Virus record (IMG/VR): IMGVR_UViG_3300030380_000587
Location: 1 to 52,962 of that record
DNA: 52,962 nt
Direction: 5' to 3' (one strand)
Source: a virus
Lineage: Duplodnaviria > Caudoviricetes
Part shown: positions 1 through 52,962 of the stretch, in pieces
How the letters are laid out: each line of letters opens with the position of its first letter
Numbering within the stretch: position 1 is the first letter of the stretch
Position numbers and translations under genes: made by a program
The notes under the pieces: model-generated
Told to the model about the DNA's origin: nothing
Databases searched by the model: none
The model's input: the letters and a program-made list of their open reading frames with translations, nothing else

Positions 1-93
1 ATTCTTCTAAATCAAAAGTAATTGGTGCTTGATAGATACACTCAATGTATCTTGGTTTGTCGCTATCTACGTTCATAATGTTTAAACCTCCTC
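1..93. repeat. Copy 1 of left flank, repeated at 52661-52753
   Basis: 1-77 is identical to 52661-52737, with one mismatch at 78/52738, then identity through 93/52753. Contains the 5' end of the 85-aa gene seen complete at 52479-52736. Confidence 0.95.
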
Positions 94-303
94 CCTTATT
101 ACTCTATATTTTGCTATTGGTGTTGTTGCATTTGTTTCTCTCCACCCTTCATGGTTAGTAAAGGTCGGATAAAAAGCCACATATTGTCTACCAGATTTCT
201 CATCTGTCCAGAAATTTACATCTACATTTACACCTTCTTCTAGCTCTAAATCAGTCCAGTTATCTTCTTGCCATCTGAAATCCATATACTCATTTATGTC
301 CAT
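82..303 (-). CDS. Small acidic early protein (cassette allele A), unknown function
   Basis: 73-aa ORF with GGAGG SD; ends EEV-stop inside the repeat. Confidence 0.85.
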   Translation of the reverse strand: MDINEYMDFRWQEDNWTDLELEEGVNVDVNFWTDEKSGRQYVAFYPTFTNHEGWRETNATTPIAKYRVIREEV

Positions 304-377
304 AACGTTTAAACCTCCCCTTCTAAATCTTTTATTAATTCTTCTGCATCATCTTCATCATAAGACTTTTGCTCTAT
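297..377. repeat. Copy 1 of right flank, repeated at 52882-52962
   Basis: 81-bp exact match to the last 81 bases of the window. Confidence 0.95.
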
Positions 378-533
378 TAAATATTCTTTAAGTTCTTCTC
401 TTGTGTTGGGCAAACTATCTTCATAATAATCTGCAACCAAATCAGCTATCCAATCTTTAGCATTATAATCGTTTACATCATCCCATGCCCAAATTTCTGC
501 TAGATTTCTTTTTATAAGTAATATTTTATCCAT
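309..533 (-). CDS. Small acidic early protein, unknown function
   Basis: 74-aa D/E-rich ORF with SD; ends GEV-stop in the repeat. Confidence 0.85.
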   Translation of the reverse strand: MDKILLIKRNLAEIWAWDDVNDYNAKDWIADLVADYYEDSLPNTREELKEYLIEQKSYDEDDAEELIKDLEGEV

Positions 534-538
534 AACGT

Positions 539-772
539 TTAAACCTCCTCATCTTCTGGATATTGTTCTTCATAGCTTTTGAATCTTATGACCTTTGCCT
601 CGTGTATTTCTTCGTGCCACCCCTCAAAATAGTCCTCGTTTCTATTGGCTATGTGTTGGTTCTCATCAGAGAAAGCATATCGCTTTGCCTGAGTCTCGCT
701 GTCTGCATCTACTTCTATTGTTGCGAAGTAGTGCCTTTCTATTTCTATTAAATATGTTCCTTCTTTACTCAT
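539..772 (-). CDS. Small acidic early protein, unknown function
   Basis: 77-aa ORF with SD; 'IEVDADSETQA' pattern is common in small phage proteins; ends EEV-stop. Confidence 0.85.
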   Translation of the reverse strand: MSKEGTYLIEIERHYFATIEVDADSETQAKRYAFSDENQHIANRNEDYFEGWHEEIHEAKVIRFKSYEEQYPEDEEV

Positions 773-795
773 AGTGTTTAAACCTCCTTAAGTTT

Positions 796-981
796 TTAAC
801 TTCTATATATCTTAACATTCATTCTTCTAAAGTTCAACCCCAAGCCCTGCCTATCTGTATAAATATTATACTTAGTAATTGAATCTCTTGCGTAAGTCTT
901 CACTCTAAATTTAAAGCCTAAGATATTGATATGCCTAAACTTTTTCTTCGGTGTGAAAGTATCTCTGTATATTTTAATCAT
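796..981 (-). CDS. Small basic early protein, unknown function
   Basis: 61-aa K/R-rich ORF preceded by the GGAGGTTTAAAC repeat. Confidence 0.8.
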   Translation of the reverse strand: MIKIYRDTFTPKKKFRHINILGFKFRVKTYARDSITKYNIYTDRQGLGLNFRRMNVKIYRS

Positions 982-1002
982 AACGTTTAAACCTCCTTTA
1001 GT

Positions 1003-1146
1003 TTATATAATTGTTATCGCAATAATAACTAATACTATTGCTATTGGTTTTAATATATACCAATTTATTCTAAATATCAAGCTATCATCTGCCTGTCTTT
1101 TAAAATCCTGTTGAAAAATTGTCCACTCTTTTTTTAATTTATTCAT
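1003..1146 (-). CDS. 47-aa putative membrane protein (not in ORF track)
   Basis: Hand translation MNKLKKEWTIFQQDFKRQADDSLIFRINWYILKPIAIVLVIIAITII; SD repeat upstream; hydrophobic C-terminus. Confidence 0.75.
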   Translation of the reverse strand: MNKLKKEWTIFQQDFKRQADDSLIFRINWYILKPIAIVLVIIAITII

Positions 1147-1162
1147 CATGTTTAAACCTCCT

Positions 1163-1426
1163 CTAGTTGTTTAAGTCTGTTAATATATATTCACCACTCT
1201 GAATCTTTTTCCTTGTGTCGGCTATGCCCTCATTTAGAAATTGATTTCTGTATTTTCCTGTAGTCGTTGAATAATCCCAAAAATATTCATCAAGATATAT
1301 TTTACCTTGTGATTTCTTAGCAATTATACTTCTATAACTTTGGAAATATTCCTCGCCTTTATCATTTATAATAAACTGGTTCGCCACTTTATTACCTCTT
1401 GCACTTGTCATATTTTGTACACGCAT
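1163..1426 (-). CDS. Conserved phage early protein, unknown function
   Basis: 87 aa; FQSY...WDYSTTTGKYRNQFL pattern recurs in phage early proteins; SD repeat upstream. Confidence 0.8.
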   Translation of the reverse strand: MRVQNMTSARGNKVANQFIINDKGEEYFQSYRSIIAKKSQGKIYLDEYFWDYSTTTGKYRNQFLNEGIADTRKKIQSGEYILTDLNN

Positions 1427-1636
1427 TGTTTAAACCTCCTTTGATATTTGTAATTAATTAAACAATATGAACACCTTATAAAATTATTAATCACATTGCA
1501 AGTGTTTTAATCAAATTATTTTAAATTTATTTTAATTAAATTGCTTGTGTTCTCTGTCAATTTGTGCTAGTGATTTTTTTAACTAACATTTTTACAAATA
1601 AAATGCAATAGTTTTTTTAAGTTTATTTAACTAAAT

Positions 1637-39598: not shown

Positions 39599-39604
39599 AG
39601 TAGG

Positions 39605-39662: not shown

Positions 39663-40073
39663 ACAAACATAAAAGCATTTGGACAATTCAGTCCGTTCTC
39701 AGTCGGGTTTGATGACATCTTTAATACATTACAAAGAGCATCAATACCTAATACAAACTATCCACCTTACAATATTCTTAAAAAAGGTGAATCATATTTT
39801 ATTGAAATGGCAATGGCAGGGTTTAAACGTTCTGACATTGATATTGAAGTAAAAGATAATACATTAACTATCTCTGCAGACTACGAAAAGAGAGAGGATG
39901 ATATAGAATTTATTCATAAAGGAATTTCTGAACGAGAGTTCTATAAAAAATTTGCTCTAGCTGAATACGTAGAAGTAAAGAAAGCTCAGATGATTGATGG
40001 TGTCTTGGTTATTCAACTGGAAAAAGACATACCAGAGGAACAAAAGCCAAAAAAAATCAAAGTTTCTAGCTAA
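39660..40073 (+). CDS. Small heat shock protein (Hsp20, IbpA-like)
   Basis: VGFD, NYPPYNI, IEMAMAGF, HKGISER.F...F.L, DGVLVI.L. Confidence 0.95.
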   Translation: MTNIKAFGQFSPFSVGFDDIFNTLQRASIPNTNYPPYNILKKGESYFIEMAMAGFKRSDIDIEVKDNTLTISADYEKREDDIEFIHKGISEREFYKKFALAEYVEVKKAQMIDGVLVIQLEKDIPEEQKPKKIKVSS

Positions 40074-40101
40074 AAATAGCTAAATGCTCTGAGAGCTTCA
40101 T

Positions 40102-40180
40102 AGAAGCCCGTGGCTGCATTTTAGGTGTTTTTGGACCAATGGTATTACTTACACCCTAATCGTTCAACTACGGGCATTCT
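40102..40180. other. Long stem-loop where the two arms converge (possible bidirectional terminator)
   Basis: AGAAGCCCGTGG.../...CTACGGGCATTCT with inner TTAGGTGT/ACACCCTAA. Confidence 0.45.
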
Positions 40181-40194
40181 GTGAGGTCGTTTTT

Positions 40195-40410
40195 TCACAA
40201 AGCCTCAGTTTCACGTTCTAAATATCGATGAAGTGGTTCGAGTCTTTCTTTTGCTCTACGAAGTAAAGTTTTGACTAGAACTCTGTCGTATTCTGGAAAA
40301 CATTCATCTACTTTTTCTACTGGCAACTCTGATATTTCTGTTACTATCTTGTTATCTTTTGTTAATAATAGTTTGAAACTAATAAGATTAGCTTCCTGCT
40401 TCTTACTCAT
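40195..40410 (-). CDS. Hypothetical protein
   Basis: 71 aa overlapping the nrdB stop. Confidence 0.75.
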   Translation of the reverse strand: MSKKQEANLISFKLLLTKDNKIVTEISELPVEKVDECFPEYDRVLVKTLLRRAKERLEPLHRYLERETEAL

Positions 40411-41386: not shown

Positions 41387-41395
41387 TAGTTCTCC

Positions 41396-43291: not shown

Positions 43292-43565
43292 CTTGTTTTC
43301 CTGTTAAATATAAGGCTATTATAGCATAGTGAATAATCTTTAGCAAGTCATTTGGATTCTTACCATTCTTCTTTCCATACCTCATAGCGTATTTCATAAT
43401 GTTACCAATACAGAAACCTTCACCGTGTCCAGCATCAAGTATCATATCTGTCGCTTGATATTTACCTCTAGCATAATGTTCAGTATATGTTGAATCAATA
43501 TGAGATTTAATTGTTTCTAAAATTTTATCCTCTGTAAATTTGTAATCTCTTTTCTTCATACCCAT
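43278..43565 (-). CDS. DUF3310-like (gp1.7-like) protein
   Basis: HY...GFCIGNIMKY..R.GKK....DL.K...Y pattern. Confidence 0.65.
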   Translation of the reverse strand: MGMKKRDYKFTEDKILETIKSHIDSTYTEHYARGKYQATDMILDAGHGEGFCIGNIMKYAMRYGKKNGKNPNDLLKIIHYAIIALYLTGKQDDGR

Positions 43566-43978
43566 TCCTCTGGTAAGTTATCTTCTCCATACCATGTAAA
43601 GTTATTTGTCTCTGCCCATTCTGCATGAGTTCTTTTTGTACCATCTTTTCTTTTCTTAGCTTGTGGCATAGGTGAGTAAGGTTTCTGAAATAAAAATACT
43701 AACTCATAATTTTTAGGTAATGCCTCTCGTATATGTATGTACTTACTATACTCTGCATAGTCCCAAAATCTACCTTTAGCTTCTAACAAAATTGTTTTAC
43801 CATTGAACTCTTTAACAAAGTCTGGTTCGTATCTATGCTTCACTACATAGTCAATCATCTCACTATGATGCTGCCATTTACTTAAAACATTTTCGTGTAA
43901 GCTAACCTCCCACAAACTATCATAGCCTTTAGGTACGTTAATCTTTTTAGGTCTTGGCTTTCTTGGTTTTCTAGCCAC
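43556..43978 (-). CDS. T7 endonuclease I-like Holliday junction resolvase
   Basis: YDS.WE, YEPDF, LEAKG.F, T.AEWAE..F motifs. Confidence 0.85.
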   Translation of the reverse strand: MARKPRKPRPKKINVPKGYDSLWEVSLHENVLSKWQHHSEMIDYVVKHRYEPDFVKEFNGKTILLEAKGRFWDYAEYSKYIHIREALPKNYELVFLFQKPYSPMPQAKKRKDGTKRTHAEWAETNNFTWYGEDNLPEEWV

Positions 43979-44222
43979 GTAATAATTCCTCTAATGTAAT
44001 ATCAGGATTACGTTTTATTTTTTTATTAAACCATCGTAAGCTATAAGCACTTAATAAAATTCTACCCATACCATAGACGTGTGTTTGCTCTGGTAAAAAC
44101 TCATGTAAGTTTTTTTTGTTAATCTTAGAAGTGTCTTCACTATCAGGGGTCATAGTTCTCAACCATTCAATTAACATGTTCTCTGCTTTACGTCTTAATC
44201 TTTTAGCTTTCTTGCCATTCAT
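43971..44222 (-). CDS. Hypothetical protein
   Basis: 83 aa, MNGKKAKRLRR N-terminus. Confidence 0.7.
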   Translation of the reverse strand: MNGKKAKRLRRKAENMLIEWLRTMTPDSEDTSKINKKNLHEFLPEQTHVYGMGRILLSAYSLRWFNKKIKRNPDITLEELLRG

Positions 44223-45024
44223 AATTCTTTACCAGTTGCCAATACTTTAATATACTGTTGAACATATCTCTATGTTTCTCGTGGGATTCTTTATCCCATA
44301 TATGACATAAGACTAAGCTTGTATCCTCTCTATCTACAAAGATAGAAACCCTCTCTGGATTATCTATATTGCATCCTTGAGCATACGCAGATAGTTGCAT
44401 ACCGTGGTCATCATAAACTAATTTAGCAGGTTCTTTACCATCTAAGTTGTCTTTAGTTTTAAAGTCAACGAATATACCTGACTTAGAATATAAGTCTATC
44501 TTACCACCATATCCTTGTTTTGCACAGAAGGAATCTTCTGCTATCCACTCTTCATCTGGAAAGTTTTCATCCAACCATGATTGAATTATTTCGTAAGGCT
44601 TAGACGTACCTAGCCCTAAGAAACCTTGTTCAATCTTAGCATGAATCTCTGTACCTTTCTTCGCTGCGTTTAAACCTATCTCTTTAGAATGTTGTTTACA
44701 TCTGAAAGCAAACCCCTCTAAGGATTCGTCATCTTGCTTTTCTAAAGTAAGTGCAGAGTTTAAGGCTTGATTTATTTTCCAGTTTTCTAAGGATGGTTTA
44801 GCTACCATACCTAGAATCGTAGTGACTGAAGGTACTAATCCTAGAGACCTAGCATCTCGTAGATTGGTATTTCTTTCTTTACCATTAGCACCTATGATTG
44901 TGTACATAGGTTCTCCATCTTTGGAGTACCAATGACCAGCTTCCGATTTATATTTAGAAGCTGCTAGTTTATTATATACTTCCTGAGAAGAACTGTCAAT
45001 AGTTTTTTTATTTTTCTTTGTCAT
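44203..45024 (-). CDS. PD-(D/E)xK exonuclease
   Basis: PSVTTIL, GTEIH, GKID, VDFKT, QLSAY motifs. Confidence 0.85.
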   Translation of the reverse strand: MTKKNKKTIDSSSQEVYNKLAASKYKSEAGHWYSKDGEPMYTIIGANGKERNTNLRDARSLGLVPSVTTILGMVAKPSLENWKINQALNSALTLEKQDDESLEGFAFRCKQHSKEIGLNAAKKGTEIHAKIEQGFLGLGTSKPYEIIQSWLDENFPDEEWIAEDSFCAKQGYGGKIDLYSKSGIFVDFKTKDNLDGKEPAKLVYDDHGMQLSAYAQGCNIDNPERVSIFVDREDTSLVLCHIWDKESHEKHRDMFNSILKYWQLVKNYEWQES

Positions 45025-45430
45025 TTTCTGACTCCTTGAATGCTTTGATTACATCACTAGAAAATAATTTCTGTAAATTAACTAAGAACATTTTACTTGC
45101 GTTGTTATCTCCACCCGATACTGTTTTAAAATAATCTAATTTATCTACAATAGTTTTCAATACATCTGTTTTAAAAACTAAAGTACAAAATTCATTATCG
45201 CCAACACATAGATTATGAAACCAGTAATCAGATTCTGTTGTTCTTATTCCTGATGGTTTGTTCCAGCATTCATATTCAACACAGATGTTTCCTGTCTTCA
45301 TCCACATACCACGTTCTGACTTGACTTCTATCTTTTTATTAGTTAGCATATCTACAATCTTTTCTTCACGGATTGTACCATACTGTAAGTCTATGTCAAA
45401 TTTCTTTCTGTCTTCTTTAATGGGTTTCAC
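45008..45430 (-). CDS. Conserved phage protein, possible PD-(D/E)xK fold
   Basis: FDIDL.YG...E, IEVK, TGNI.VE, KPSGI..T.SDYW. Confidence 0.6.
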   Translation of the reverse strand: MKPIKEDRKKFDIDLQYGTIREEKIVDMLTNKKIEVKSERGMWMKTGNICVEYECWNKPSGIRTTESDYWFHNLCVGDNEFCTLVFKTDVLKTIVDKLDYFKTVSGGDNNASKMFLVNLQKLFSSDVIKAFKESENDKEK

Positions 45431-47147
45431 TCCAATTCCCTCCTATTTTATATTCGCCATCTAAAGGACAGCGAAGGTTAAAACTTTCTCCAGCTTTGAT
45501 AATACTATCAACAGCAAGAGAGCCTGTAAATTCTGCTTGACTTTCTTTAACTTCTATTTGCCATTCATCATGTATGTTAGCAACAAACTTATAATCAATA
45601 GTGTTTAAACGTAACATTAAATCTAAATCAACAAGAGCTTTCTTCATAACAATAGAACCTGCTCCCTGTAATAATGTATTCAATGCCGAGTGTTGATTTC
45701 TAACATATAACTTTCTACCATCTATTCCTTTGAGGTAAGTTTTTGTAGATGCTCTTTGTACTCTATCTCTAAGAGATTTAAATGAAGGCTTATTATCGAA
45801 GAAATGTTGTCTAGCTCTTCGACCATCTGCCTTACTTCCTCCAACCACACTTCCAAGCTTTTCATCTCCTGCTCCGTACATGAGTGCATAGATGAATGTT
45901 TTTGCCTTATCTCTAGATTCAAGCTGTGCAAGTCTTTGATTGGCGGTGTGAATGTCTCCGTTAATGATTTCATTTATAAACTCCTCGTCAGCCATATAGT
46001 GTGCTAACATTCTTATTTCTAGTCCACTAGCATCTACTCCTAGTAAAACATTACCTTCTTCTACAGTCCAACATGCTCTGCATTCCTTACCGAAAGGGCT
46101 AGATACACTTGGTACTTGTGCCATGTTAGGATTACGATGAGTCATACGACCTGTTATCGTACCGTTAGGTATGACAAACCCATGTACTCTTCCATCATCT
46201 GTGACTGCTTCAAACCATGAATCAATCTGTGCAATTCTTTTCTGTAGTAATAAAAAGTCTGCAATCAATTTAGCTTCATGTATGTGCGTTATCTTTGATA
46301 ATGTTTTCTCATCTACAATAGGCTGACCTGTTGGTGTAAATCTATCTGGCTTCCACCCAAAATCAATTAGGTATTCTCCAATCTGTTTACGACTACCAAG
46401 ATTAAACTCTTGTAAAGTCTTACGCATGAATGGATTATAGTTGGAAGTGTTTAAACAGTTTGTATATTCTTCATCCGTGAGTCCACGTTTAGAAAGTTGT
46501 CCATCCTTTTTAATGTATGGAGTAACTAACTTACTATCTACCCACTTAGGTTTAAACGTCTTCTGTACCTCATCCTCAATGGCTTGTTTCTTTTCTCTTA
46601 ACTCTGCTAACAAAAGTTCAGCGTGTAAGATGTCAAACTTAAATCCATTTGTCTCTTGCTGCTTTATGATACGAGCTACACCTTGTTCTAACTCGATGGA
46701 ATCTTTTGAGAATCCTTTACTTTCTTTTCTTAGTTCTTTGAAGACTTGAGTATTAAGTTGTACATCTCTTACACAATAGTCTAGCATTTCTTGAGAGTAA
46801 TTTAAATAATCATTGAAGTCAATCTTGTTGAATCCTAATTTGTATCCCCAATTTTCTAAGCTATGTCCACCCTCTCTAGTTGGGTTGAATAGTCTGGATA
46901 AAACTAGCGTATCTATTACAGGTATCTTTGATAAATCTACATCACTAAACTTATGTATCATAGGTATATCAAATCCAATAATGTTATGACCAATTAAAGT
47001 ATCAGCAGTAGCTAAGAACTCATAACCTTTTTGTAATTCATCTGGTGTAAACTTAAATATCTGACCAGTTAAAGGGTCTTGAGCTACAATACACCACACC
47101 TTCGTGGCGTTTAAATCATCTGTCTCTATGTCAAATACTAAATCCAT
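45417..47147 (-). CDS. Family A DNA polymerase (T7 gp5-like) with 3'-5' exonuclease
   Basis: FDIETD, GHNIIGFD, YCVRD; motif A DASGLE, motif B KTFIYALMYG, motif C HDE. Confidence 0.95.
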   Translation of the reverse strand: MDLVFDIETDDLNATKVWCIVAQDPLTGQIFKFTPDELQKGYEFLATADTLIGHNIIGFDIPMIHKFSDVDLSKIPVIDTLVLSRLFNPTREGGHSLENWGYKLGFNKIDFNDYLNYSQEMLDYCVRDVQLNTQVFKELRKESKGFSKDSIELEQGVARIIKQQETNGFKFDILHAELLLAELREKKQAIEDEVQKTFKPKWVDSKLVTPYIKKDGQLSKRGLTDEEYTNCLNTSNYNPFMRKTLQEFNLGSRKQIGEYLIDFGWKPDRFTPTGQPIVDEKTLSKITHIHEAKLIADFLLLQKRIAQIDSWFEAVTDDGRVHGFVIPNGTITGRMTHRNPNMAQVPSVSSPFGKECRACWTVEEGNVLLGVDASGLEIRMLAHYMADEEFINEIINGDIHTANQRLAQLESRDKAKTFIYALMYGAGDEKLGSVVGGSKADGRRARQHFFDNKPSFKSLRDRVQRASTKTYLKGIDGRKLYVRNQHSALNTLLQGAGSIVMKKALVDLDLMLRLNTIDYKFVANIHDEWQIEVKESQAEFTGSLAVDSIIKAGESFNLRCPLDGEYKIGGNWSETH

Positions 47148-47149
47148 AA

Positions 47150-48811
47150 TTAAAATGCTTCGTCTGAATCATCATCAAACATTATATCATCATTACTAAC
47201 TTCAGTCAATCTTCCTGTATCATTATCATACATAACACTACAAGCCATTCCAACATCTCCTGTGTATCTTGATTTTAATATACGCATCCTTGTTGTTCTC
47301 GCTTCTTCTGCATCGTCTGACTGTTGATTACGTTCCAATGCTATCACACAATCACTTAATTGTCCAATACTATTTGAACCTCTAAGATGAGAGAGTGATA
47401 CCTCAATACCATTCTCATGTCCTTTGTTACCATCTACTCTACGTAAGTGGGAAACTAAAATAATACCAGCACCTGTTTCTTCTACTAAGCTTCTAAGTCT
47501 TGTCATAATAGAATCAATGGCACGTCTCTCATCTCCTTCATGCACCGCACTAACTAACATATGTAAATGGTCTACCACTACCCACTTACAATCACATCCG
47601 ATAATCATAAATCTTAGTTTGGTAAAGATGTCATCGATGTCGTTAGTTCCAAAATGAGAATGTACCCATACTCTGTTCTTGTTGTCCCCATCATACAAGA
47701 TGTCAAACATCTTATCTAATTCTTCAACAGAAAACTTCTCTCGTTCTTGGTCAATGTAAAGTCTGGCGTTAGCTTCGATAGATAAGATACCATCGATAGT
47801 TCTTCTCCAGTCCTCTTCAAGTGCTATGATACCAACGTTATCCTTTGTCTCTTTGATAAGCCAATGCTCTAGTTCTCTAGTAACACTTGACTTACCTAGT
47901 CCTGTACCACCTGTAAGAGTTACAAGTTCTCCTTGTCTGAGTCCATATAGTTTCTTATTCAATCCTTTGTAAGGATAAGGAACACTTTGCTTCTTCTCTC
48001 TGTTGTGGAACTTATCTCGCTGCTCTGAGACATTGATAACACCAGATGGGGTATAGACTTTAGCTGCCCACCATGATTCAACAAACTCTTTATGCTTGTT
48101 ATTTTTAAGCATATCGTTAGGGTCTTTGTACCCATTGGGGAGTGTAACTATCTTAGCCTTACTAGGTTTAAACAGCCTCGCTACCTTTACTGCTGCTTCC
48201 TTCCCTGCCTTGTCATTATCAAATGCAATGATTACATTTTCAAATTCATCAAAGAACTCTAGGCTTTCTTTAACATCACGTACAGCTCCTTGAGCACCAC
48301 GTTTGATGGATACTACAGCCCATTTACTTCCTAGCAATTCGTAAGCTGCCATAGCATCACACTCCCCTTCCGTTATCGTGACATACTTGCCACTCTTGAA
48401 GAGTTGTTGTCCGAACAATCCTGTTTCATTATAAGTACCAGCTACGAAGAAGTCTTTAGTCTTCACGTGCCGACACTTAGTACCTGCTAGTTCATGTCCG
48501 TTGTAGTAAGGGTAAAAGTGTTTGATGACATTACCTTGATGGTCATGTGCTACCTTTACTCCATACTTAGTAGCAGTAGGCTGAGAGATTTTTCTGTCAG
48601 ACAAAGCTGCAAATATTCCCTCATCTACTACGTCAGGTTTTTTAGTTTCAGTTTGAAATTCCATATCTTTTCCCTCACATGATTTATTATAGTCAGGCAT
48701 AAACTCCCCGCAACTGAAACACTTTGCTGAACCATCTTCGTTGATTCCGACAGCATCACTACTATCACAAAGCGGACAAGGTTGATGAACTTTATCCCAA
48801 GTTTTTTCCAT
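47150..48811 (-). CDS. Primase-helicase (T7 gp4-like)
   Basis: CPLC/CFSC zinc finger, TOPRIM EGE.D and FDND, GGTGLGKS, VDHL, LRGS. Confidence 0.95.
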   Translation of the reverse strand: MEKTWDKVHQPCPLCDSSDAVGINEDGSAKCFSCGEFMPDYNKSCEGKDMEFQTETKKPDVVDEGIFAALSDRKISQPTATKYGVKVAHDHQGNVIKHFYPYYNGHELAGTKCRHVKTKDFFVAGTYNETGLFGQQLFKSGKYVTITEGECDAMAAYELLGSKWAVVSIKRGAQGAVRDVKESLEFFDEFENVIIAFDNDKAGKEAAVKVARLFKPSKAKIVTLPNGYKDPNDMLKNNKHKEFVESWWAAKVYTPSGVINVSEQRDKFHNREKKQSVPYPYKGLNKKLYGLRQGELVTLTGGTGLGKSSVTRELEHWLIKETKDNVGIIALEEDWRRTIDGILSIEANARLYIDQEREKFSVEELDKMFDILYDGDNKNRVWVHSHFGTNDIDDIFTKLRFMIIGCDCKWVVVDHLHMLVSAVHEGDERRAIDSIMTRLRSLVEETGAGIILVSHLRRVDGNKGHENGIEVSLSHLRGSNSIGQLSDCVIALERNQQSDDAEEARTTRMRILKSRYTGDVGMACSVMYDNDTGRLTEVSNDDIMFDDDSDEAF

Positions 48812-48828
48812 GTTAGCCCTCCGACTGT

Positions 48829-49095
48829 TTAAACGTTATCTGTTGATTCTTCTTCTATAGTTTCTGCATCCTCAACAGGCTCATCATTTTCTACCATAGC
48901 TTCAGGAGTTTCTTTTAAAAGATTCTCCAGATTACTTCTATGAGTAGAACTAGCAAACTGTAAAGCCTCTATAATAGTTTCTAAACTTCCTACCTTTGAG
49001 ATAGTTACAGTTGCTCCACGTTTCTTATCCTCATCTGCTATTTTATTAACATCGTATTGAATTTCCCCGTCATCATTTTTAATATTGATAATCAT
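48829..49095 (-). CDS. Hypothetical protein
   Basis: 88 aa; its stop lies within a GTTTAAAC. Confidence 0.75.
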   Translation of the reverse strand: MIINIKNDDGEIQYDVNKIADEDKKRGATVTISKVGSLETIIEALQFASSTHRSNLENLLKETPEAMVENDEPVEDAETIEEESTDNV

Positions 49096-49097
49096 AA

Positions 49098-49517
49098 TTA
49101 AAATTCCTCGTTATCAGAGTCTCCCTCTGAATCATATTCTACTAAGTTAAGAACTTTTACAGCCATAAGTTCTGCAAACGTCCCGTAATTTCCTGTATAA
49201 GGCTTTATCTTAACCCTTACAGTTGAGCCATTTCCAACAGCAACATCAAGCGGATTACCTTCTCCATCTAATAACTTAGGTGCAGCGTTAGGCGTACCAT
49301 CTTTTCTGTTGGCATGTCTACTAAAAGAGAATGCAGGTTCATCATACTTGAGTTGACCATCTCTGGTTCTCACTTGTTTTAAACCTAGACCCTCTAGTCT
49401 ATTAGCAGTATCCTCATCTGTAAGCACAACGATTTGATACTTATGTGGTTCAAATCTCCTGTTAGGTGTGCTGACATTAGCATACATACTCTTTCCATCT
49501 AAATACTCATACTCCAT
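49098..49517 (-). CDS. Single-stranded DNA-binding protein (gp2.5-like)
   Basis: VGNGS.V, L.AV.V..LVEY, acidic tail ending in F; upstream of the primase. Confidence 0.8.
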   Translation of the reverse strand: MEYEYLDGKSMYANVSTPNRRFEPHKYQIVVLTDEDTANRLEGLGLKQVRTRDGQLKYDEPAFSFSRHANRKDGTPNAAPKLLDGEGNPLDVAVGNGSTVRVKIKPYTGNYGTFAELMAVKVLNLVEYDSEGDSDNEEF

Positions 49518-49552
49518 AGTTTTATCCTCCGTAGGTTGTATTAAGTGTTGCC

Positions 49553-49581
49553 ATTATATCATACTTTGGCTTTGAGTTCAA
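49553..49581 (-). promoter_or_regulatory. sigma70 promoter for the replication operon
   Basis: TTGAAC-17 nt-TATAAT with extended -10 TG. Confidence 0.75.
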
Positions 49582-49607
49582 TAGTTTTTTGAAATTAATT
49601 TGAGATT

Positions 49608-49825
49608 GTTTAAACGGGTGGCAGTACTTGGTGTAGTTCTTATCCTGCTTCATCCACAACCTTTCACAAACCTGATTGATAAGGGGAAAGGATTTTACGG
49701 TGGCTCTAGCACCACGTTTAAACGTTTCAAAAGGAGCTGGTTTTAAGGGCACAAGACCAGAAACTTGCACGACTGAATCGAATACCATAGGTTTAAAAGG
49801 AAATTTATGAGGGCTATTCCTATGA
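49608..49825. ncRNA. Candidate structured non-coding RNA
   Basis: GC-richer intergenic tract with five consecutive predicted stems; strand uncertain. Confidence 0.4.
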
Positions 49826-50020
49826 TACGCCACGAACATTCTCATCATTGTATTTAAAAAATTCATCCCAACAAAAACTAACATCTTTAAGAAAAGAAAT
49901 CTTAAAAAAATCATCAATGTGCTCAACCATATAACCAAACTGATTTGGCTGTGAGCTGATGAAGTTTTGAAAGTTTCTATACTCATCCCTCGTTAATGTC
50001 CTTGTCTTGTTGTCAATCAT
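49820..50020 (-). CDS. Hypothetical protein, probably leaderless
   Basis: ATG 50020 follows TATAAT by 7 nt; the ORF-track start 50029 lies within the -10 box. Confidence 0.65.
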   Translation of the reverse strand: MIDNKTRTLTRDEYRNFQNFISSQPNQFGYMVEHIDDFFKISFLKDVSFCWDEFFKYNDENVRGVS

Positions 50021-50027
50021 GTCAGGC

Positions 50028-50056
50028 ATTATAACATATCTCCTTTGTAAAGTCCA
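50028..50056 (-). promoter_or_regulatory. sigma70 promoter
   Basis: TGGACT-17 nt-TATAAT with extended -10 TG. Confidence 0.65.
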
Positions 50057-50063
50057 GCGTTAT

Positions 50064-50261
50064 TTAAAAATATTTATTTAAAACTTCTAGCTTATCGTTG
50101 TAATCTGATATAGCTTGTAGCTCTTCTTCAATAGTCTTCAATAAGTCTGGATGTTCTGGAACTCCTACCGCTTTGTCTAGCATTATGTTTACGTTCATAA
50201 TGTGCCAACCAATCAAGCCTTCTAAATTATTTTTTAGTGCTTGTATAATCTCTTCTCTCAT
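50064..50261 (-). CDS. Conserved small phage protein
   Basis: 65 aa; H..N......VGV.EHPD....IE.EL.......DKLE.L.KYF family. Confidence 0.8.
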   Translation of the reverse strand: MREEIIQALKNNLEGLIGWHIMNVNIMLDKAVGVPEHPDLLKTIEEELQAISDYNDKLEVLNKYF

Positions 50262-50262
50262 A

Positions 50263-50562
50263 CTACCCTCCTAAGAATAGTTTTAAAATACCGCTAAACA
50301 ATATCACTACTGCTACCGCATTTAAAATAATTAATGCTCTGTCTTTCCACAGAACCCCTACCCACAACCAACCTAAACATCCTACAAAGGATAGTAATAA
50401 ATCAAACTGTGGTAAAACTTGTGCACCTCTAAACGACATTGCTACTAACATGATGGCTGATGCTGACCATTTAACATACCAAGATAAATCATACTTAGGT
50501 GTTGCTGATTTAAATATTCTTTTAGAATTTTCTAATTCTTTTTTAGAAAAGTTTTGTGTCAT
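50263..50562 (-). CDS. Small 3-TM membrane protein
   Basis: WYVKW..S, GWLWVG.LW.DRALI.LN; start 50562 from an ATGA overlap. Confidence 0.75.
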   Translation of the reverse strand: MTQNFSKKELENSKRIFKSATPKYDLSWYVKWSASAIMLVAMSFRGAQVLPQFDLLLSFVGCLGWLWVGVLWKDRALIILNAVAVVILFSGILKLFLGG

Positions 50563-50693
50563 ACCATATACCTTGTATCTATGATATAGCAATCTTGTTT
50601 AAACGTTCTGTCGCAAATACTAAAAGCTACGATAAAACAAGCCAACATAAAAAACAAATAAATAAAATCTCTTCCATTAAATTGTGGTGTCAT
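50559..50693 (-). CDS. 44-aa membrane peptide (not in ORF track)
   Basis: MTPQFNGRDFIYLFFMLACFIVAFSICDRTFKQDCYIIDTRYMV; ATGA overlaps at both ends. Confidence 0.65.
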   Translation of the reverse strand: MTPQFNGRDFIYLFFMLACFIVAFSICDRTFKQDCYIIDTRYMV

Positions 50694-50962
50694 GCTCCAC
50701 CTCTGCAATATAAATCTATTAATTCTTGACCTGTCTTTTCTTCTCCAAAAGTATGTATTGTCTCTCCATATTTTTTTCTAACAATCAATCCATTATTGTA
50801 TTCTATGTCCATAACCTTACCAACCTCAGTATCCCAAGGTCTATCATCATACCACATAGATTTTAAGCTGTGAATATGTACCGCTTTAGGAACTTTTGCC
50901 CACTCTTCTGCTTCAAGTAGCAACCTTTGTTGACTAACCCTATCATCATGCTCTGTCATCAT
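50690..50962 (-). CDS. Hypothetical protein
   Basis: 90 aa, GGAGG SD. Confidence 0.75.
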   Translation of the reverse strand: MMTEHDDRVSQQRLLLEAEEWAKVPKAVHIHSLKSMWYDDRPWDTEVGKVMDIEYNNGLIVRKKYGETIHTFGEEKTGQELIDLYCRGGA

Positions 50963-51080
50963 AGTCCTCCTCTCCTAACACATCCTCACTATACTCATTT
51001 GTATCTACTATCGGTGCATTATTGTAGTAATCATCTACAACATCATCAATATTTATAATTCTTTTTGTATCATCACTCAT
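50946..51080 (-). CDS. 44-aa highly acidic protein (not in ORF track)
   Basis: MSDDTKRIINIDDVVDDYYNNAPIVDTNEYSEDVLGEEDYDDRA; AAGGA SD; first ORF after the promoter at 51165-51193. Confidence 0.65.
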   Translation of the reverse strand: MSDDTKRIINIDDVVDDYYNNAPIVDTNEYSEDVLGEEDYDDRA

Positions 51081-51164
51081 ATTTATATCCTTTTTAAAAT
51101 ATTTTAATTATTTAATTTATTAATTATTATAATTATTTGTTTGATACCTTAAAAAATTTAAAAG

Positions 51165-51193
51165 ATTATAACATTTTTTATAAGGTAAGTCAA
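51165..51193 (-). promoter_or_regulatory. sigma70 promoter
   Basis: TTGACT-17 nt-TATAAT with extended -10 TG, within a very AT-rich gap. Confidence 0.8.
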
Positions 51194-51219
51194 ACACTTT
51201 GTTAATTAATTGAGTCTGT

Positions 51220-51459
51220 TTAAACATACTCTACTACTGGTTCTATTTGAAATGCCCAACACCAATGACCATTATCTAAGTCAAGGATTTGATTACGTTC
51301 TTGTATATGCCACCAATCAATCTCCTCTACTGGAATACCTTCTTTACTTCCGTTAGAATAGTTTAGCTGGATTCCTGTTACCATTACCTTTCTAGGTTCT
51401 TCCATACCAAAGCTACCTCTCCATAGAACATCATCTCCTATTCTTAATGTATCACTCAT
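51220..51459 (-). CDS. Hypothetical protein
   Basis: 79 aa, GGAGG SD; stop lies inside a GTTTAAAC. Confidence 0.8.
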   Translation of the reverse strand: MSDTLRIGDDVLWRGSFGMEEPRKVMVTGIQLNYSNGSKEGIPVEEIDWWHIQERNQILDLDNGHWCWAFQIEPVVEYV

Positions 51460-51670
51460 TGTCTTCCTCCTTGTTATCTTTAACTAATTGTAGTGTTGGT
51501 TTATCTTTTATTTCAAAGTCTGGTGTAAATGTTATCAAAGGTTCGATAGGTTGTCCATTCATATCCCAAGTATCTATAATTAATTCATCTGTTGAATCAT
51601 CAATGTAGATTATCTTACCTGTTGATGTTGTTATGTAAGCTACGTTGTCTGCTTTTACTTCTATAATCAT
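51452..51670 (-). CDS. Hypothetical protein
   Basis: Likely start MIIEVK at 51670 (GGAGG SD, ATGA overlap). Confidence 0.7.
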   Translation of the reverse strand: MIIEVKADNVAYITTSTGKIIYIDDSTDELIIDTWDMNGQPIEPLITFTPDFEIKDKPTLQLVKDNKEEDNE

Positions 51671-52158
51671 GCTACCTCCCTTGTCCACCAGTCTGGTCTG
51701 GCTCTGCCTTTCTCCCACTTAGCGTAATGCTTCTCATTGATACAGTAATCTCTGTACGCTTTAATAGGGTTATCGTTCTTGTATTCATCTGGCATAGCTT
51801 GTGCAAGTGGTGTCATACTTTTTTTAGTAATGTTTGGTATCTTTTTTAAAGGTTCTTTTAGTTTAGTTATACTTGCATGTTCTCTCCCATATCTAAACTT
51901 ATACTCGCTACCTAAAGCTAGGAAGTGTACATACAACCAAAGATAATTTAATCTAGATTCTCTTGCCCATACAGTACATGGATGATTCCAGTATGCTCGT
52001 TTGTAAAGTCCTACACTATCTGCATATTCATCTCCATCTATTTCTCTATGTGCTGTGCATAACATCTGTGCTGTTTCCAATGGCATTTTTACCAACATCT
52101 TATCAGGTTGTGCTATTGCACACTCTATTGGGCTATCATCAAAATAAAATATATTCAT
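51667..52158 (-). CDS. Pyrimidine-dimer DNA glycosylase (DenV-like) family protein
   Basis: MNIF..D..P...A....DK..VKM.LE.AQML, HPCTVWAR, EY..RYG..H, AYR.Y. Confidence 0.7.
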   Translation of the reverse strand: MNIFYFDDSPIECAIAQPDKMLVKMPLETAQMLCTAHREIDGDEYADSVGLYKRAYWNHPCTVWARESRLNYLWLYVHFLALGSEYKFRYGREHASITKLKEPLKKIPNITKKSMTPLAQAMPDEYKNDNPIKAYRDYCINEKHYAKWEKGRARPDWWTREVA

Positions 52159-52168
52159 AGTTCCTCCT

Positions 52169-52486
52169 TTATTTTATCCAACATTTATATCCTGTGCATT
52201 TGTCAAGTGTATCTCCACAATGCTCACAATAATCTTCATCTTGTTTAAACATATCCTGTTGATATTCATTAGCCATATCATCTAACTCTTTAGAAGATAA
52301 GCCACCTGTTGCATGATGAGATAGAAACTTTATCAGTAAAGTCGTATCATCATCATTGCTTTGATTATCATACATGAACTCGCAACAGTCGTCAAACAAA
52401 TCAGGTCTGTCATGTATCTGCCAGAGTCTGTTTAAACGTTCTCGTATCTGATACATTTGCTCCGTTTTAATTAAGTCATTATCCAT
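52169..52486 (-). CDS. Hypothetical protein with C-terminal Cys cluster
   Basis: Likely start MDNDLIK (GGAGG SD); CEHC.....C....C at the C-terminus. Confidence 0.7.
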   Translation of the reverse strand: MDNDLIKTEQMYQIRERLNRLWQIHDRPDLFDDCCEFMYDNQSNDDDTTLLIKFLSHHATGGLSSKELDDMANEYQQDMFKQDEDYCEHCGDTLDKCTGYKCWIK

Positions 52487-52736
52487 TAAGTCCCTCCACA
52501 AAATCCCAACCATCTGTTAATATATTTTCTTTGTCTGCCCATTTATAATCTGGGTCGCCAATATCTCCATCATGTTCTGCTGTGCTACCATCTTTATATG
52601 TAATGTAAAGCGTTCCATATTTGATATAGTAATCGTCTACCTCATTAAAGTCAACTCCTAATTCTTCTAAATCAAAAGTAATTGGTGCTTGATAGATACA
52701 CTCAATGTATCTTGGTTTGTCGCTATCTACGTTCAT
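52479..52736 (-). CDS. Small acidic early protein
   Basis: 85 aa, preceded by GGAGGTTTAAAC; YYIKYGTLYI...DG motif. Confidence 0.8.
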   Translation of the reverse strand: MNVDSDKPRYIECIYQAPITFDLEELGVDFNEVDDYYIKYGTLYITYKDGSTAEHDGDIGDPDYKWADKENILTDGWDFVEGLNG

Positions 52737-52753
52737 ACTGTTTAAACCTCCTC
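52661..52753. repeat. Copy 2 of left flank (matches 1-93)
   Basis: Direct comparison; one mismatch. Confidence 0.95.
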
Positions 52754-52888
52754 AAATTTATCTTCATAAAAATACACAACAGCTACAGTTCCTTTTGTCG
52801 CACTCTCATGTACACTAAAATCTACATCATAAAACTCATTGTCAAGCCTGTCAAGTAATTCTTGTTCACTCAATTTATCTTTGTCCAT
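52742..52888 (-). CDS. 48-aa acidic early protein (cassette allele B; not in ORF track)
   Basis: MDKDKLSEQELLDRLDNEFYDVDFSVHESATKGTVAVVYFYEDKFEEV; bounded by repeats at 52740 and 52892. Confidence 0.8.
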   Translation of the reverse strand: MDKDKLSEQELLDRLDNEFYDVDFSVHESATKGTVAVVYFYEDKFEEV

Positions 52889-52962
52889 AACGTTTAAACC
52901 TCCCCTTCTAAATCTTTTATTAATTCTTCTGCATCATCTTCATCATAAGACTTTTGCTCTAT
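52882..52962. repeat. Copy 2 of right flank (matches 297-377)
   Basis: 81-bp exact match; encodes the C-terminus of the 309-533 gene. Confidence 0.95.

What the first reader, a model, noticed from the sequence alone, without database searches (positions are those of the whole stretch)
52661..52962. The same genomic slot holds two unrelated genes at the two window ends: apparent cassette exchange
Seen: the ends are not a simple terminal repeat. Left flank (1-93 = 52661-52753) and right flank (297-377 = 52882-52962) are shared. Between them the start carries a 73-aa gene (82-303) and the end carries an unrelated 48-aa gene (52742-52888). Both begin ATG GAC A, both end GAG GAG GTT TAA (EEV-stop), and homology breaks within a few bases of the GGAGGTTTAAAC repeats. 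Inference: this is an assembly bubble in a circular genome, i.e. co-existing phage variants with precise whole-gene replacement at repeat-bounded slots. The 77-nt exact left match looks like an assembler k-mer. A 77-nt right overlap would start exactly at the ATG (301), which may hint at a third allele or an empty slot.
Basis: partly seen in the sequence, partly recalled or inferred. Interest (0 to 1): 0.9.

Follow-up and report, generated by a model that had tools for sequence, protein, structure and literature searches.

The report
Swappable early-gene cassettes in a marine phage
The two ends of this marine phage contig overlap because the assembler went round a circular genome and passed once through each of two co-existing versions of one small-gene slot, and related phages show that such small genes are swapped, lost and gained exactly at a short repeated ribosome-binding linker.

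Summary
Window 1-93 equals 52661-52753 with one mismatch at 78. Window 297-377 equals 52882-52962 exactly. Between these flanks lie unrelated genes, A73 (82-303) and B48 (52742-52888), both on the minus strand.

The window is a whole virus record. It wraps round a roughly 52.6-kb genome and crosses a two-allele bubble twice.

In 4 of 4 public marine runs (3 studies), contigs join both alleles to the same flanks. Allele depths add up to the flank depth but are unequal, so these are co-existing variants. A second polymorphism appears in 3 of 4 runs: exact loss of the Z77 cassette between two linker copies.

Across the window's two versions and 9 related contigs I found 15 cassette families in 23 adjacencies. 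Five different genes sit directly upstream of X85. Every breakpoint lies within 8 nt upstream or 14 nt downstream of GGAGGTTTAAAC.

The most likely mechanism, inferred rather than shown, is short-homology recombination or template switching at a translational-coupling linker. No recombinase or homing-nuclease gene was found.

This is a new variant of known boundary-sequence, PeSL and SAS phenomena. The hinted third allele or empty slot was not seen. An early-module excess of the palindrome GTTTAAAC remains unexplained.

The parts
1..93 (.). Left shared flank. It holds the first 76 nt of gene X85, a 3-nt spacer, a linker copy and 2 more nt. It duplicates 52661-52753.
   Evidence: one mismatch at 78 and an exact run of 77; the Logan contig of X85 ends at 77 in all 4 runs.
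82..303 (-). Allele A of the slot: gene A73 (73 aa). It belongs to a conserved phage-only family of unknown function.
   Evidence: ORF. (13 unnamed marine protein clusters). (33 invariant columns in 19 sequences). (contigs 48-273 or 48-326 in 4 of 4 runs).
297..377 (.). Right shared flank. It holds ATGGACA of the slot gene, the spacer, a linker copy and the 3' end of Y74. It duplicates 52882-52962.
   Evidence: exact over 81 nt.
309..533 (-). Gene Y74, the upstream neighbour of the slot. It ends ...EGEV inside the linker.
   Evidence: only 3 IMG/VR loci encode a relative.
539..772 (-). Cassette Z77. It is present in only part of the population.
   Evidence: The loose end at 549 in X1, X3 and X5 equals window 789-805, which skips 550-788. 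Z77 contig depth is about half to two thirds of Y74 depth.
80..91 (-). Linker GGAGGTTTAAAC between A73 and X85.
307..318 (-). Linker between Y74 and A73.
537..548 (-). Linker between Z77 and Y74. It is one end of the Z77 deletion junction.
776..787 (-). Linker between g61 and Z77. It is the other end of the Z77 deletion junction.
985..996 (-). Linker between g48 and g61.
1150..1161 (-). Linker between g87 and g48.
1428..1439 (-). First linker of the array, upstream of g87.
796..1426 (-). Cassettes g61 (796-981), g48 (1003-1149) and g87 (1163-1426) of the same array.
52479..52736 (-). Gene X85, the conserved downstream anchor of the slot.
   Evidence: (43 IMG/VR loci encode a relative). (5 different upstream neighbours).
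52742..52888 (-). Allele B of the slot: gene B48 (48 aa). It belongs to a conserved phage-only family of unknown function.
   Evidence: (41 loci).. (204-nt contig, joint 93->297, in 4 of 4 runs). (no relative in genome contigs).
52740..52751 (-). Linker between B48 and X85. The spacer here is AGT; with A73 it is ATT.
52892..52903 (-). Linker between Y74 and B48. It lies in the duplicated right flank.
52661..52962 (.). The stretch that makes the record longer than one genome unit. It is the second pass through the slot, by the B48 route.
   Evidence: Unit length is 52,660 bp with A73 and 52,585 bp with B48.

Best explanation
The record is one complete, circular or circularly permuted genome of about 52.6 kb. 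It belongs to a lytic marine phage distantly related to the HTVC103P-type pelagiphages.

The assembler walked round the circle and passed a two-branch bubble twice, once by each branch. The contig therefore starts X85'-A73-Y74 and ends X85-B48-Y74'. The two branches are real variants that co-exist in the sea.

The slot is the last position of a polycistronic array of small early genes. Each gene is joined to the next by the same linker, GGAGGTTTAAAC, followed by 0-3 nt and ATG. The linker carries the Shine-Dalgarno sequence of the next gene. In most cassettes it also carries the last codons (E-V) and the TAA stop of the gene before, so it works as a translational-coupling joint (inferred).

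Because the linker is identical at every joint, it also offers 12-22 nt of homology. Recombination or replication template switching can use this to delete, insert or replace whole cassettes without harming neighbours. The location of the breakpoints is shown. The enzymology is inferred. The likely agents are the phage's own T7-type replication and annealing proteins.
For: Wrap-around:
- Independent contigs carry X85 contiguous with the cassettes found at the window's start.
- The closest cultured phages are 54.1-54.8 kb.

Co-existence (all 4 of 4 runs, 3 studies):
- An X85 contig ends at 77.
- An A73 contig has 0-1 other letters.
- A 204-nt contig covers 48-93 with the SNP and joins 93->297. 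Its length equals 46 + 128 + 30.
- Depth of A plus B against the X85 flank: 8.75 + 11.6 versus 19.2; 24.1 + 8.8 versus 34.3; 20.5 + 7.46 versus 32.1.
- A:B ranges from 43:57 to 73:27, so the two are not copies in one genome.

Second polymorphism: the loose end at 549 in 3 of 4 runs equals window 789-805. This is exact loss of Z77 between two linker copies.

Comparative evidence:
- There are 15 cassette families and 23 distinct adjacencies in winA, winB and 9 contigs. Five families lie directly upstream of X85.
- In 72 pairs with a different upstream cassette, exact identity ends 0-8 nt before GGAGG. In 50 pairs with a different downstream cassette, it ends 0-14 nt after the linker.
- Unrelated proteins share the linker-encoded C-terminal E-V.
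- B48 relatives elsewhere run on past EEV.

Operon structure: the array has no promoter-like or terminator-like sites above background, while a perfect consensus promoter lies upstream at 3005-2977.

Recombination candidates: a gp2.5-like SSB/annealing protein (E 4.5e-10), an exonuclease, a primase-helicase and a T7-like DNA polymerase.

Other lineages have their own uniform linkers: L211 has GGTGAATGATG six times, L217 GAACGAAGATG six times, and L049 GGAGGCGTTTAAAC.
Against: - Logan contigs (k = 31) tie each allele to only 30-46 nt of flank. Linkage of A73 or B48 to the rest of the genome, or to Z77 presence or absence, is therefore not shown.
- Depths are whole-contig means and can include k-mers of related phages.
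- One of the runs may be the source sample.
- The pair counts are not independent events. Cassettes were delimited by the linker itself, so only the extension test is independent.
- The spacer SNP at 78 travels with the allele (AGT with B48, ATT with A73). At least the downstream crossover can therefore lie in the homologous X85 gene rather than in the linker.
- At deeper divergence the A73 and B48 families sit among very diverse neighbours without this linker. It is present upstream at 0 of 11 A73 loci and 2 of 38 B48 loci. The linker is thus not needed for mosaicism in general.
- The contig's right overlap is 81 nt, not 77 nt, and this is unexplained.
- No experiment or read-level evidence shows the recombination mechanism.
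Confidence: 0.75

Rival explanations
1. This is a dedicated site-specific cassette system. The 8-bp palindrome GTTTAAAC in the linker would be the target of a phage-encoded nuclease or recombinase that excises and inserts cassettes, in an integron-like or homing-like way.
For: - GTTTAAAC occurs 31 times against 1.76 expected, and 0 of 100 shuffles reach 31.
- In the early module it occurs 27 times against 0.66 expected, and it is the most over-represented 8-mer there. In the late module it occurs 2 times against 1.35 expected.
- Copies inside coding sequence lie in different frames (read by me from the contexts printed).
- Coding-sequence copies are kept in relatives at 81-87% overall identity: 5 of 6 in L006, 5 of 5 in L008 and 5 of 5 in L019.
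- The variant linker of L049 keeps the palindrome.
- Cassette boundaries are exact.
Against: - No integrase, resolvase, HNH or GIY-YIG match was found in the window.
- The cassette proteins and six further early-module ORFs scanned gave no nuclease or recombinase family at or above the curated cut-off.
- The exchange points are not fixed. The spacer triplet goes with the upstream cassette, and SNP 78 goes with the allele.
- Sister lineages have the same cassette architecture with non-palindromic linkers.
- Most GTTTAAAC copies are not at cassette joints.
Confidence: 0.1
2. The linker is only a translation signal. Cassette changes would arise by random illegitimate recombination, and selection would keep only those events that fall at gene boundaries.
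For: - The A73 and B48 families have many different neighbours in lineages that lack this linker. For A73 there are 8 upstream and 6 downstream neighbour clusters in 11 loci.
- The literature notes that conserved boundary sequences are absent from most phage mosaic joints (PMC3029335, passages read).
Against: - Within the lineage, every one of 23 adjacencies uses the identical 12-mer.
- The Z77 loss joins the two repeat copies in register.
- Unrelated proteins end in the linker-encoded E-V.
- Each lineage has one uniform but different linker. Homogenisation by exchange explains this better than a host-optimal translation signal.
Confidence: 0.1
3. This is a mis-assembly or a single-genome structure. 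Either two different phages were joined through a short shared repeat, or one genome carries both copies (Y74-A73-X85 and Y74-B48-X85) as a partial duplication or as unlike terminal repeats.
For: - IMG/VR classes the record as linear and 68% complete.
- The shared flanks at the ends are short (93 and 81 nt).
Against: - Allele depths are unequal (24.1 versus 8.8, and 20.5 versus 7.46) and sum to the flank depth. One genome holding both would give equal depths, each half of the flank depth.
- The Y74-B48 and Y74-A73 joints both exist in 4 of 4 runs.
- Relatives carry A73 or B48 alone at this slot.
- A genome size of 52.6 kb fits cultured relatives at 54-55 kb.
Confidence: 0.04

Closest known systems
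PeSL (promoter-early stem-loop) cassettes of T4-type phages (Arbiol et al. 2010, PMC2839356: abstract and section 16 read; Comeau et al. 2014, PMC4122927: listing only)
   Same: Repeated short elements flank small non-essential ORFans in a plastic region. Differences between close relatives (insertion, deletion, replacement) map to the repeats. Recombination between repeats is proposed to excise or insert single-gene cassettes.
   Different: PeSLs span about 100 bp and are transcriptional units made of a sigma-70-like promoter plus a terminator stem-loop. Here the repeat is 12 nt (up to about 22 nt with the spacer and first codons). It overlaps the coding ends, carries the SD and stop, and sits inside one operon with no promoter or terminator at the joints. 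Mini-circles are not shown here.
Start-associated sequences (SAS) of Cluster K mycobacteriophages (Pope et al. 2011, PMC3203893: passages read)
   Same: Both are short asymmetric repeats of 12-13 bp that contain the SD core and lie a few nt upstream of ATG starts. Both occur in one orientation, are restricted to the non-structural half, sometimes contain the upstream gene's stop codon, have conserved positions beyond the rRNA-pairing part, and are associated with genes of different families.
   Different: The sequence differs (GGGATAGGAGCCC there). SAS were not linked to cassette exchange or to population polymorphism. There is no palindromic core and no extended inverted repeats here.
Short conserved boundary (linker) sequences of the modular theory for lambdoid phages (as summarised in PMC3029335, passages read; the original papers are recalled, not seen)
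   Same: Homologous recombination at short conserved sequences between otherwise unrelated modules produces viable mosaics.
   Different: In lambdoid phages the sequences lie between functional modules and are found at only a minority of joints. Here one identical linker bounds every single-gene cassette of an array, and the polymorphism is seen segregating in natural samples.
Integron gene cassettes
   Same: Arrays of promoterless single-gene cassettes are read from an upstream promoter, with cassette gain, loss and replacement at defined joints.
   Different: There is no IntI-type integrase and no attC-like long imperfect inverted repeat. The setting is a lytic phage genome, and exchange points are not fixed to one phosphodiester bond.
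Deletion between short direct repeats in phage T7
   Same: A T7-type replication and recombination machinery removes DNA between direct repeats of about 10-20 bp. This resembles the exact Z77 loss between two 13-nt repeats.
   Different: That work was a laboratory observation on artificial repeats. It did not concern a natural, genome-organised linker system.

Membership tests
Assembly wrap-around through a two-allele bubble (circular or circularly permuted genome) | Both contig ends share flanks around a divergent middle. | tested here: met
   flanks of 93 nt (1 mismatch) and 81 nt (exact), with middles of 203 versus 128 nt.
Assembly wrap-around through a two-allele bubble (circular or circularly permuted genome) | The contig end and contig start are true neighbours in independent assemblies. 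| tested here: met
   in L006, L007, L008, L170, L172, L175 and L176, X85 is contiguous with g61, g48 or g87.
Assembly wrap-around through a two-allele bubble (circular or circularly permuted genome) | Both alleles are joined to the same flanks within one sample, and allele depths sum to the flank depth. | tested here: met
   seen in 4 of 4 runs. The caveats are that flanks are only 30-46 nt (k = 31 contigs) and depths are contig means.
Assembly wrap-around through a two-allele bubble (circular or circularly permuted genome) | The graph topology and k of the original assembly. | not testable with these tools
   The assembly graph is not available. The 77-nt left overlap fits k = 77, but the 81-nt right overlap does not.
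PeSL cassettes (T4-type) | The repeat contains a strong sigma-70-like early promoter. | tested here: not met
   no promoter-like site at the joints above background. The joints are only 12 nt plus 0-3 nt.
PeSL cassettes (T4-type) | The repeat contains a stem-loop terminator. | tested here: not met
   within 1-3100 the terminator-like sites lie only at 1720-1825, outside the array.
PeSL cassettes (T4-type) | Differences between close relatives map to the repeats. | tested here: met
PeSL cassettes (T4-type) | Excised mini-circles exist. | not testable with these tools
   One search listed no back-joint, but contigs drop rare molecules. Raw reads or inverse PCR are needed.
Start-associated sequences (Cluster K) | A short repeat with the SD core lies within a few nt of ATG, in one orientation, in the non-structural half only. 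| tested here: met
   9 of 9 exact copies are on the minus strand, 0-3 nt before ATG, all in the early module.
Start-associated sequences (Cluster K) | The consensus is GGGATAGGAGCCC (as given in PMC3203893). | tested here: not met
   The linker is GGAGGTTTAAAC.
Integron cassettes | An IntI tyrosine recombinase is encoded next to the array. | tested here: not met
   no PF00589 match in the window. The control matched in 14 of 14 genomes.
Integron cassettes | An attC-type imperfect inverted repeat ends each cassette. | tested here: not met
   The joints are 12-25 nt, and the only symmetry is the 8-bp palindrome.
Boundary/linker sequences (modular theory) | A short conserved sequence is flanked by unrelated sequence on either side in different genomes. 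| tested here: met
   identity ends 0-8 nt upstream and 0-14 nt downstream of the linker.
Boundary/linker sequences (modular theory) | Exchange is carried out by general homologous recombination. | not testable with these tools
   Only candidate proteins were found.

The most novel reading that the evidence does not exclude
The linker may be more than a passive homology patch. It could be the joint of a dedicated, phage-borne cassette-exchange system. Its palindromic core, GTTTAAAC, is 41-fold over-represented across the early module and conserved even inside genes. This core would be bound or cut by an as yet unrecognised early protein. That action would stimulate cassette excision, capture and replacement, and would keep a standing polymorphism of host-takeover or anti-defence genes in natural populations of a lytic marine phage. 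It would be a functional analogue of an integron without an integrase.
Probability: 0.12. Interest if true: 0.9.

Novelty: new variant of a known kind. Interest (0 to 1): 0.6.

Why it matters
1. It bears on an old dispute about how phage mosaics arise: homologous exchange at short conserved linkers, or random illegitimate recombination followed by selection. Here one 12-nt linker bounds every cassette of an early-gene array. All breakpoints among close relatives fall on it. Two such events, a gene swap and an exact cassette loss, are caught segregating in sea-water metagenomes from several studies. This makes the question testable in an abundant marine phage group.

2. The swapped genes are small, acidic, phage-only early proteins. 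These are the class expected to act in host takeover or counter-defence. Intermediate frequencies of A73 and B48 in several samples suggest maintained diversity.

3. There is a practical point. The record is a chimera of two variants with a 302-nt second pass, and it is classed as linear and 68% complete. Checks that look for exact terminal repeats will miss complete genomes that close through a bubble.

Tried and rejected
- Generic scan for the linker plus ATG in viral contigs.
- Linker plus X85-start pattern and two-linker pattern in viral contigs. Both found only the three contigs already in hand.
- Function of A73 and B48. Pfam gave nothing at or above the curated cut-off. A73 has 13 unnamed clusters. 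The AlphaFold model of A73 was poor (pLDDT 57). The B48 model was fair (pLDDT 77, one helix plus a hairpin), but 0 of 91 PDB matches had E <= 0.001. The protein atlas gave no usable lead. Function remains unknown.
- B48 family in genome contigs. Of 87 pattern matches, none was confirmed, so there is no host hint.
- Third allele or empty slot at this position. One search listed no joint 77->304, and the Y74 contig starts at 297 in X1, X3 and X5. Contigs drop rare variants, so absence is not proved.
- Mini-circles or tandem duplications. One search listed no back-joints. Contigs cannot exclude them.
- Cover gaps (for example 851-1000, and Y74 in X2) are not used as evidence.
- HTVC115P early region. 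It has no common linker and 1 GTTTAAAC in 12 kb, so the linker is not a feature of the cultured relatives.
In one search the filter meant to drop linker copies from the flank table failed, so that table covers all 31 sites and I do not use it.
- Rows dropped. L173 and L174 are the same contigs as L007 and L008 and were left out. L019 and L219 (partial matches at locus ends) were left out, and L202 gave no ORF there.
- Supplementary files of the papers were not opened. They may hold linker or repeat tables for the pelagiphages that I could not see.
- Literature searches for an earlier description found PeSL, SAS and boundary-sequence papers. They found none on this linker or on HTVC103P-type early arrays. 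I did not search for the motif string itself.
Full report
**What is in the sequence**

The window is a complete IMG/VR virus record of 52,962 bp, classed there as linear and 68% complete. Its two ends overlap in an unusual way.
- Positions 1-93 equal 52661-52753, apart from A versus C at 78.
- Positions 297-377 equal 52882-52962 exactly.
- Between the flanks the start holds 203 nt and the end holds 128 nt of unlike sequence.

All genes here are on the minus strand. In gene direction the start of the record reads Y74 (309-533), then A73 (82-303), then the first 76 nt of X85. The end reads X85 (52479-52736), preceded by B48 (52742-52888) and by the last 69 nt of Y74.

A73 and B48 are unrelated. 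BLASTP gives E = 4.1, and the only aligned part is the shared C-terminal EEV. Both start ATGGACA and both end GAGGAGGTTTAA.

The repeat GGAGGTTTAAAC is far beyond chance. There are 9 exact copies plus one with one mismatch. Shuffles give 0.23 matches at up to one mismatch, and 0 of 100 shuffles reach 10.

**What phage this is**

GC content is 35.2%. A minus-strand module covers 39-52.9 kb and continues at 1-2.75 kb. A plus-strand structural module covers 3-39 kb.

The minus-strand module encodes several replication proteins:
- a T7-like DNA polymerase
- a primase-helicase
- an exonuclease
- a gp2.5-like SSB/annealing protein
- ribonucleotide reductase

The nearest cultured phages by DNA polymerase (51-54% amino-acid identity) are Pelagibacter phages HTVC115P, HTVC103P and HTVC104P, with genomes of 54.1-54.8 kb. 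They are described as the HTVC103P-type group, with a replication module and an HMO-2011-like structural module (bioRxiv 10.1101/2019.12.14.876532, passages read). A genome unit of 52,660 bp (with A73) or 52,585 bp (with B48) fits that size better than the 68% estimate does.

A perfect consensus promoter at 3005-2977 on the minus strand heads the early module. The array of small genes at 1-1440 has no promoter-like or terminator-like sites above background.

**Is it an assembly bubble of co-existing variants?**

Three lines of evidence agree.

1. The end and the start of the record are true neighbours. In independent contigs X85 is contiguous with g61, g48, g87 and g211, which lie at the window's start.

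2. The alleles share flanks within single samples. I searched public runs with the B48 end (52600-52962). Six runs from three studies held 0.94 of its 34 sampled words. I then laid four of them (X1, X2, X3, X5) on the A73 end, window 1-1500. All four are Logan contigs with k = 31. In 4 of 4 runs:
   - a contig of X85 stops at 77
   - a contig runs from 48 through A73 with 0-1 other letters
   - a 204-nt contig covers 48-93 with one other letter (the SNP at 78) and joins 93 to 297

   The 204-nt length equals 46 nt of left flank, plus the 128 nt specific to B48, plus 30 nt of right flank. Both alleles are therefore tied to the same flanks within single runs.

3. The depths add up.

| Run | A73 | B48 | A73 + B48 | X85 flank | Y74 flank |
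|---|---|---|---|---|---|
| X1 | 8.75 | 11.6 | 20.4 | 19.2 | 23.6 |
| X3 | 24.1 | 8.8 | 32.9 | 34.3 | 41.6 |
| X5 | 20.5 | 7.46 | 28.0 | 32.1 | 31.4 |

The unequal allele depths exclude one genome that carries both copies.

Limits:
- The flanks tied to each allele are only 30-46 nt.
- Depths are contig means.
- One run may be the source sample.
- X3 and X5 belong to one study.

**A second polymorphism in the same samples**

In X1, X3 and X5 a contig that fits up to 549 goes on with 17 letters that are exactly window 789-805. This joint skips 550-788. That is the Z77 cassette plus one linker, lost in register between the linker copies at 537-548 and 776-787.

The Z77 contig has 12.5, 25.7 and 19.3 depth in those runs, against 23.6, 41.6 and 31.4 for Y74. 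Part of the population therefore lacks Z77.

No joint 77->304 (an empty slot) was listed, and the Y74 contig begins at 297. Contigs cannot prove absence.

**Do breakpoints in relatives fall at the repeat?**

X85 has relatives at 43 IMG/VR loci. Only three contigs there, plus six further metagenome contigs, carry the exact linker before X85.

I cut the two window versions and these nine contigs at the linker. This gave 15 cassette families in 23 distinct adjacencies.

Directly upstream of X85 lie five different genes:
- A73: window, L170, L176
- B48: window, L007
- C62: L008, L175
- D54: L171
- Z77: L006, L172, L177

The upstream neighbours also differ. A73 follows Y74, n55 or Z77. B48 follows Y74 or n55.

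Where the downstream cassette is the same and the upstream one differs (72 pairs), exact identity ends 0-8 nt before GGAGG. In the converse case (50 pairs), it ends 0-14 nt after the linker. The pairs are not independent events, and the cassettes were delimited by the linker, so only this extension test is independent.

The order of cassettes is mostly collinear. Much of the variation can therefore be read as presence or absence within a pan-array. L177 is an exception: there a cassette ending ...FEEV precedes Z77.

**Where exactly the exchanges occur**

The spacer triplet after the linker tends to go with the upstream cassette. It is ACT after g61, GTT after n55 and Y74, AGT after B48 and ATT after A73.

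On the upstream side of the slot the neighbours Y74 and n55 are unrelated. The joint must therefore have formed within the 22 nt shared by the two contexts, which are the linker, GTT and ATGGACA.

On the downstream side the SNP at 78 travels with the allele. X85 is identical to its relatives for the first 11-79 nt. That crossover can therefore lie in X85 itself.

**The linker as a translational joint**

In most cassettes the last codons and the stop lie in the linker (...GAG GTT TAA). Unrelated proteins therefore end in E-V: Z77, Y74, A73, B48, C62, D54, n55 and a 100-aa protein in L172.

B48 relatives in other lineages continue past EEV. This suggests that the linker truncates the gene in this lineage.

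GGAGG lies 8-10 nt before the ATG. The stop lies 2-5 nt before the next start. This layout is typical of translational coupling (established knowledge; not tested here).

**Other lineages**

The A73 and B48 families are real, conserved, phage-only genes.
- A73 has 33 invariant columns in 19 sequences.
- B48 has 9 invariant columns in 25 sequences.
- No B48 relative was found in genome contigs.

At greater distance these families sit among very diverse neighbours without this linker. It is present upstream at 0 of 11 A73 loci and 2 of 38 B48 loci. One contig holds homologues of both families at separate places.

Several lineages have their own uniform joint at small early ORFs:
- L211: GGTGAATGATG, six copies
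- L217: GAACGAAGATG, six copies
- L049: GGAGGCGTTTAAAC, five copies before ORF starts

The cultured HTVC115P has none. Uniformity within a genome, combined with difference between lineages, fits homogenisation by exchange at the joints better than it fits a single host-optimal signal. This is an inference.

**Mechanism**

The best-supported reading has two parts. The linker is first of all a translational-coupling joint. Its identity at every joint then lets recombination or template switching remove, add or replace cassettes in register.

Candidate enzymes are the T7-type annealing protein, exonuclease, helicase and polymerase. In T7, deletion between direct repeats of about this length is known, but I cite this from recall and did not see the paper.

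A site-specific mechanism is less likely. No integrase, resolvase, HNH or GIY-YIG match exists in the window (with positive controls). The exchange points are not fixed. Sister lineages use non-palindromic joints.

That rival is not excluded, because of the palindrome GTTTAAAC:
- It occurs 31 times against 1.76 expected.
- It occurs 27 times against 0.66 expected in the early module, where it is the top 8-mer. In the late module it occurs 2 times against 1.35 expected.
- Its copies inside genes are kept in L006 (5 of 6), L008 (5 of 5) and L019 (5 of 5) at 81-87% overall identity.

I have no explanation for this excess.

**Comparison with what is known**

The system works like PeSL-mediated modular shuffling in T4-type phages (PMC2839356, abstract and section 16 read). 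It also works like the short boundary sequences of the modular theory (summarised in PMC3029335, passages read). The linker looks like the start-associated sequences of Cluster K mycobacteriophages (PMC3203893, passages read).

It is not a member of any of these:
- It has no promoter or terminator.
- It has a different sequence from SAS.
- It has no integrase or attC.

My literature searches found no description of this linker or of cassette polymorphism in HTVC103P-type phages. Supplements were closed, and I did not search for the motif string itself.

**Verdict**

- Shown: the wrap-around, the co-existence of two alleles and of a cassette loss, and the location of breakpoints at the linker.
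- Inferred: the recombination mechanism, the coupling function, and any role of the cassette proteins.
- Unexplained: the 81-nt right overlap and the GTTTAAAC excess.

Noticed in passing
window 38938-52962 and 1-2752 (29 of 31 sites); also 9005 and 25095: The 8-bp palindrome GTTTAAAC occurs 31 times against 1.76 expected. In the early module it occurs 27 times against 0.66 expected. Many copies lie inside genes in different frames, and they are conserved in L006, L008 and L019. Some extend towards AACGTTTAAACGTT. The function is unknown.
   Followed up: partly
window 2977-3005 (-) and 3043-3071 (+): Two divergent promoter-like sites match the sigma-70 consensus at 12 of 12 positions (TTGACA-17-TATAAT). 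They lie between the early and structural modules.
   Followed up: no
window 1808-1825 and 1440-1841: A terminator-like hairpin follows g211. After it comes a 400-nt non-coding stretch before the cassette array. That stretch holds two GTTTAAAC copies. A short ACACTTGCAAAGCG-like sequence recurs beside the GTTTAAAC copies at about 1766 and 2745, the latter lying outside this stretch.
   Followed up: no
window 4443-4862 (+), 39660-40073 (+), 40403-43291 (-): Auxiliary genes are present: a NifU-like Fe-S scaffold (Pfam E 5e-39), an HSP20 (E 4.5e-19) and both ribonucleotide reductase subunits. The first early gene, g211, has a weak SprT-like match just under the cut-off.
   Followed up: no
L211, L217, L049 (also L204, L218, L190): Other lineages of this phage group have their own uniform joint before small early ORFs. 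L211 has GGTGAATGATG six times, L217 has GAACGAAGATG six times, and L049 has GGAGGCGTTTAAAC.
   Followed up: partly
L029:1750-2060 (also L028, L030): Dense tandem arrays of 25-nt and 17-nt units contain AAATTTGCCTT (15 copies in 4.4 kb). They lie upstream of an X85 relative and look iteron-like.
   Followed up: no
window 1198-1269 (gene g87): All four runs show a high-depth joint that skips 70 nt, with sides of 29-30 nt and several mismatches. It is probably from g87 homologues of other pelagiphages, since g87 is the only part of 1-2500 with DNA matches to cultured Pelagibacter phages.
   Followed up: no
window 274 (inside A73): In X1 and X2 the A73 contig branches at 273/274 into a sequence found in L181, another lineage's A73 homologue with a different joint. 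Nearly identical A73 DNA is thus shared between lineages.
   Followed up: partly
whole record: IMG/VR classes the record as linear and 68% complete. It seems instead to be a complete genome plus a 302-nt second pass through the slot. End-repeat checks miss it because the overlap is interrupted by the allele swap.
   Followed up: partly
L182 and L196 (one IMG/VR contig of 12,026 bp): Homologues of both A73 and B48 occur on the same contig at separate places. The two are therefore independent cassettes, not strict alleles, across the wider group.
   Followed up: no
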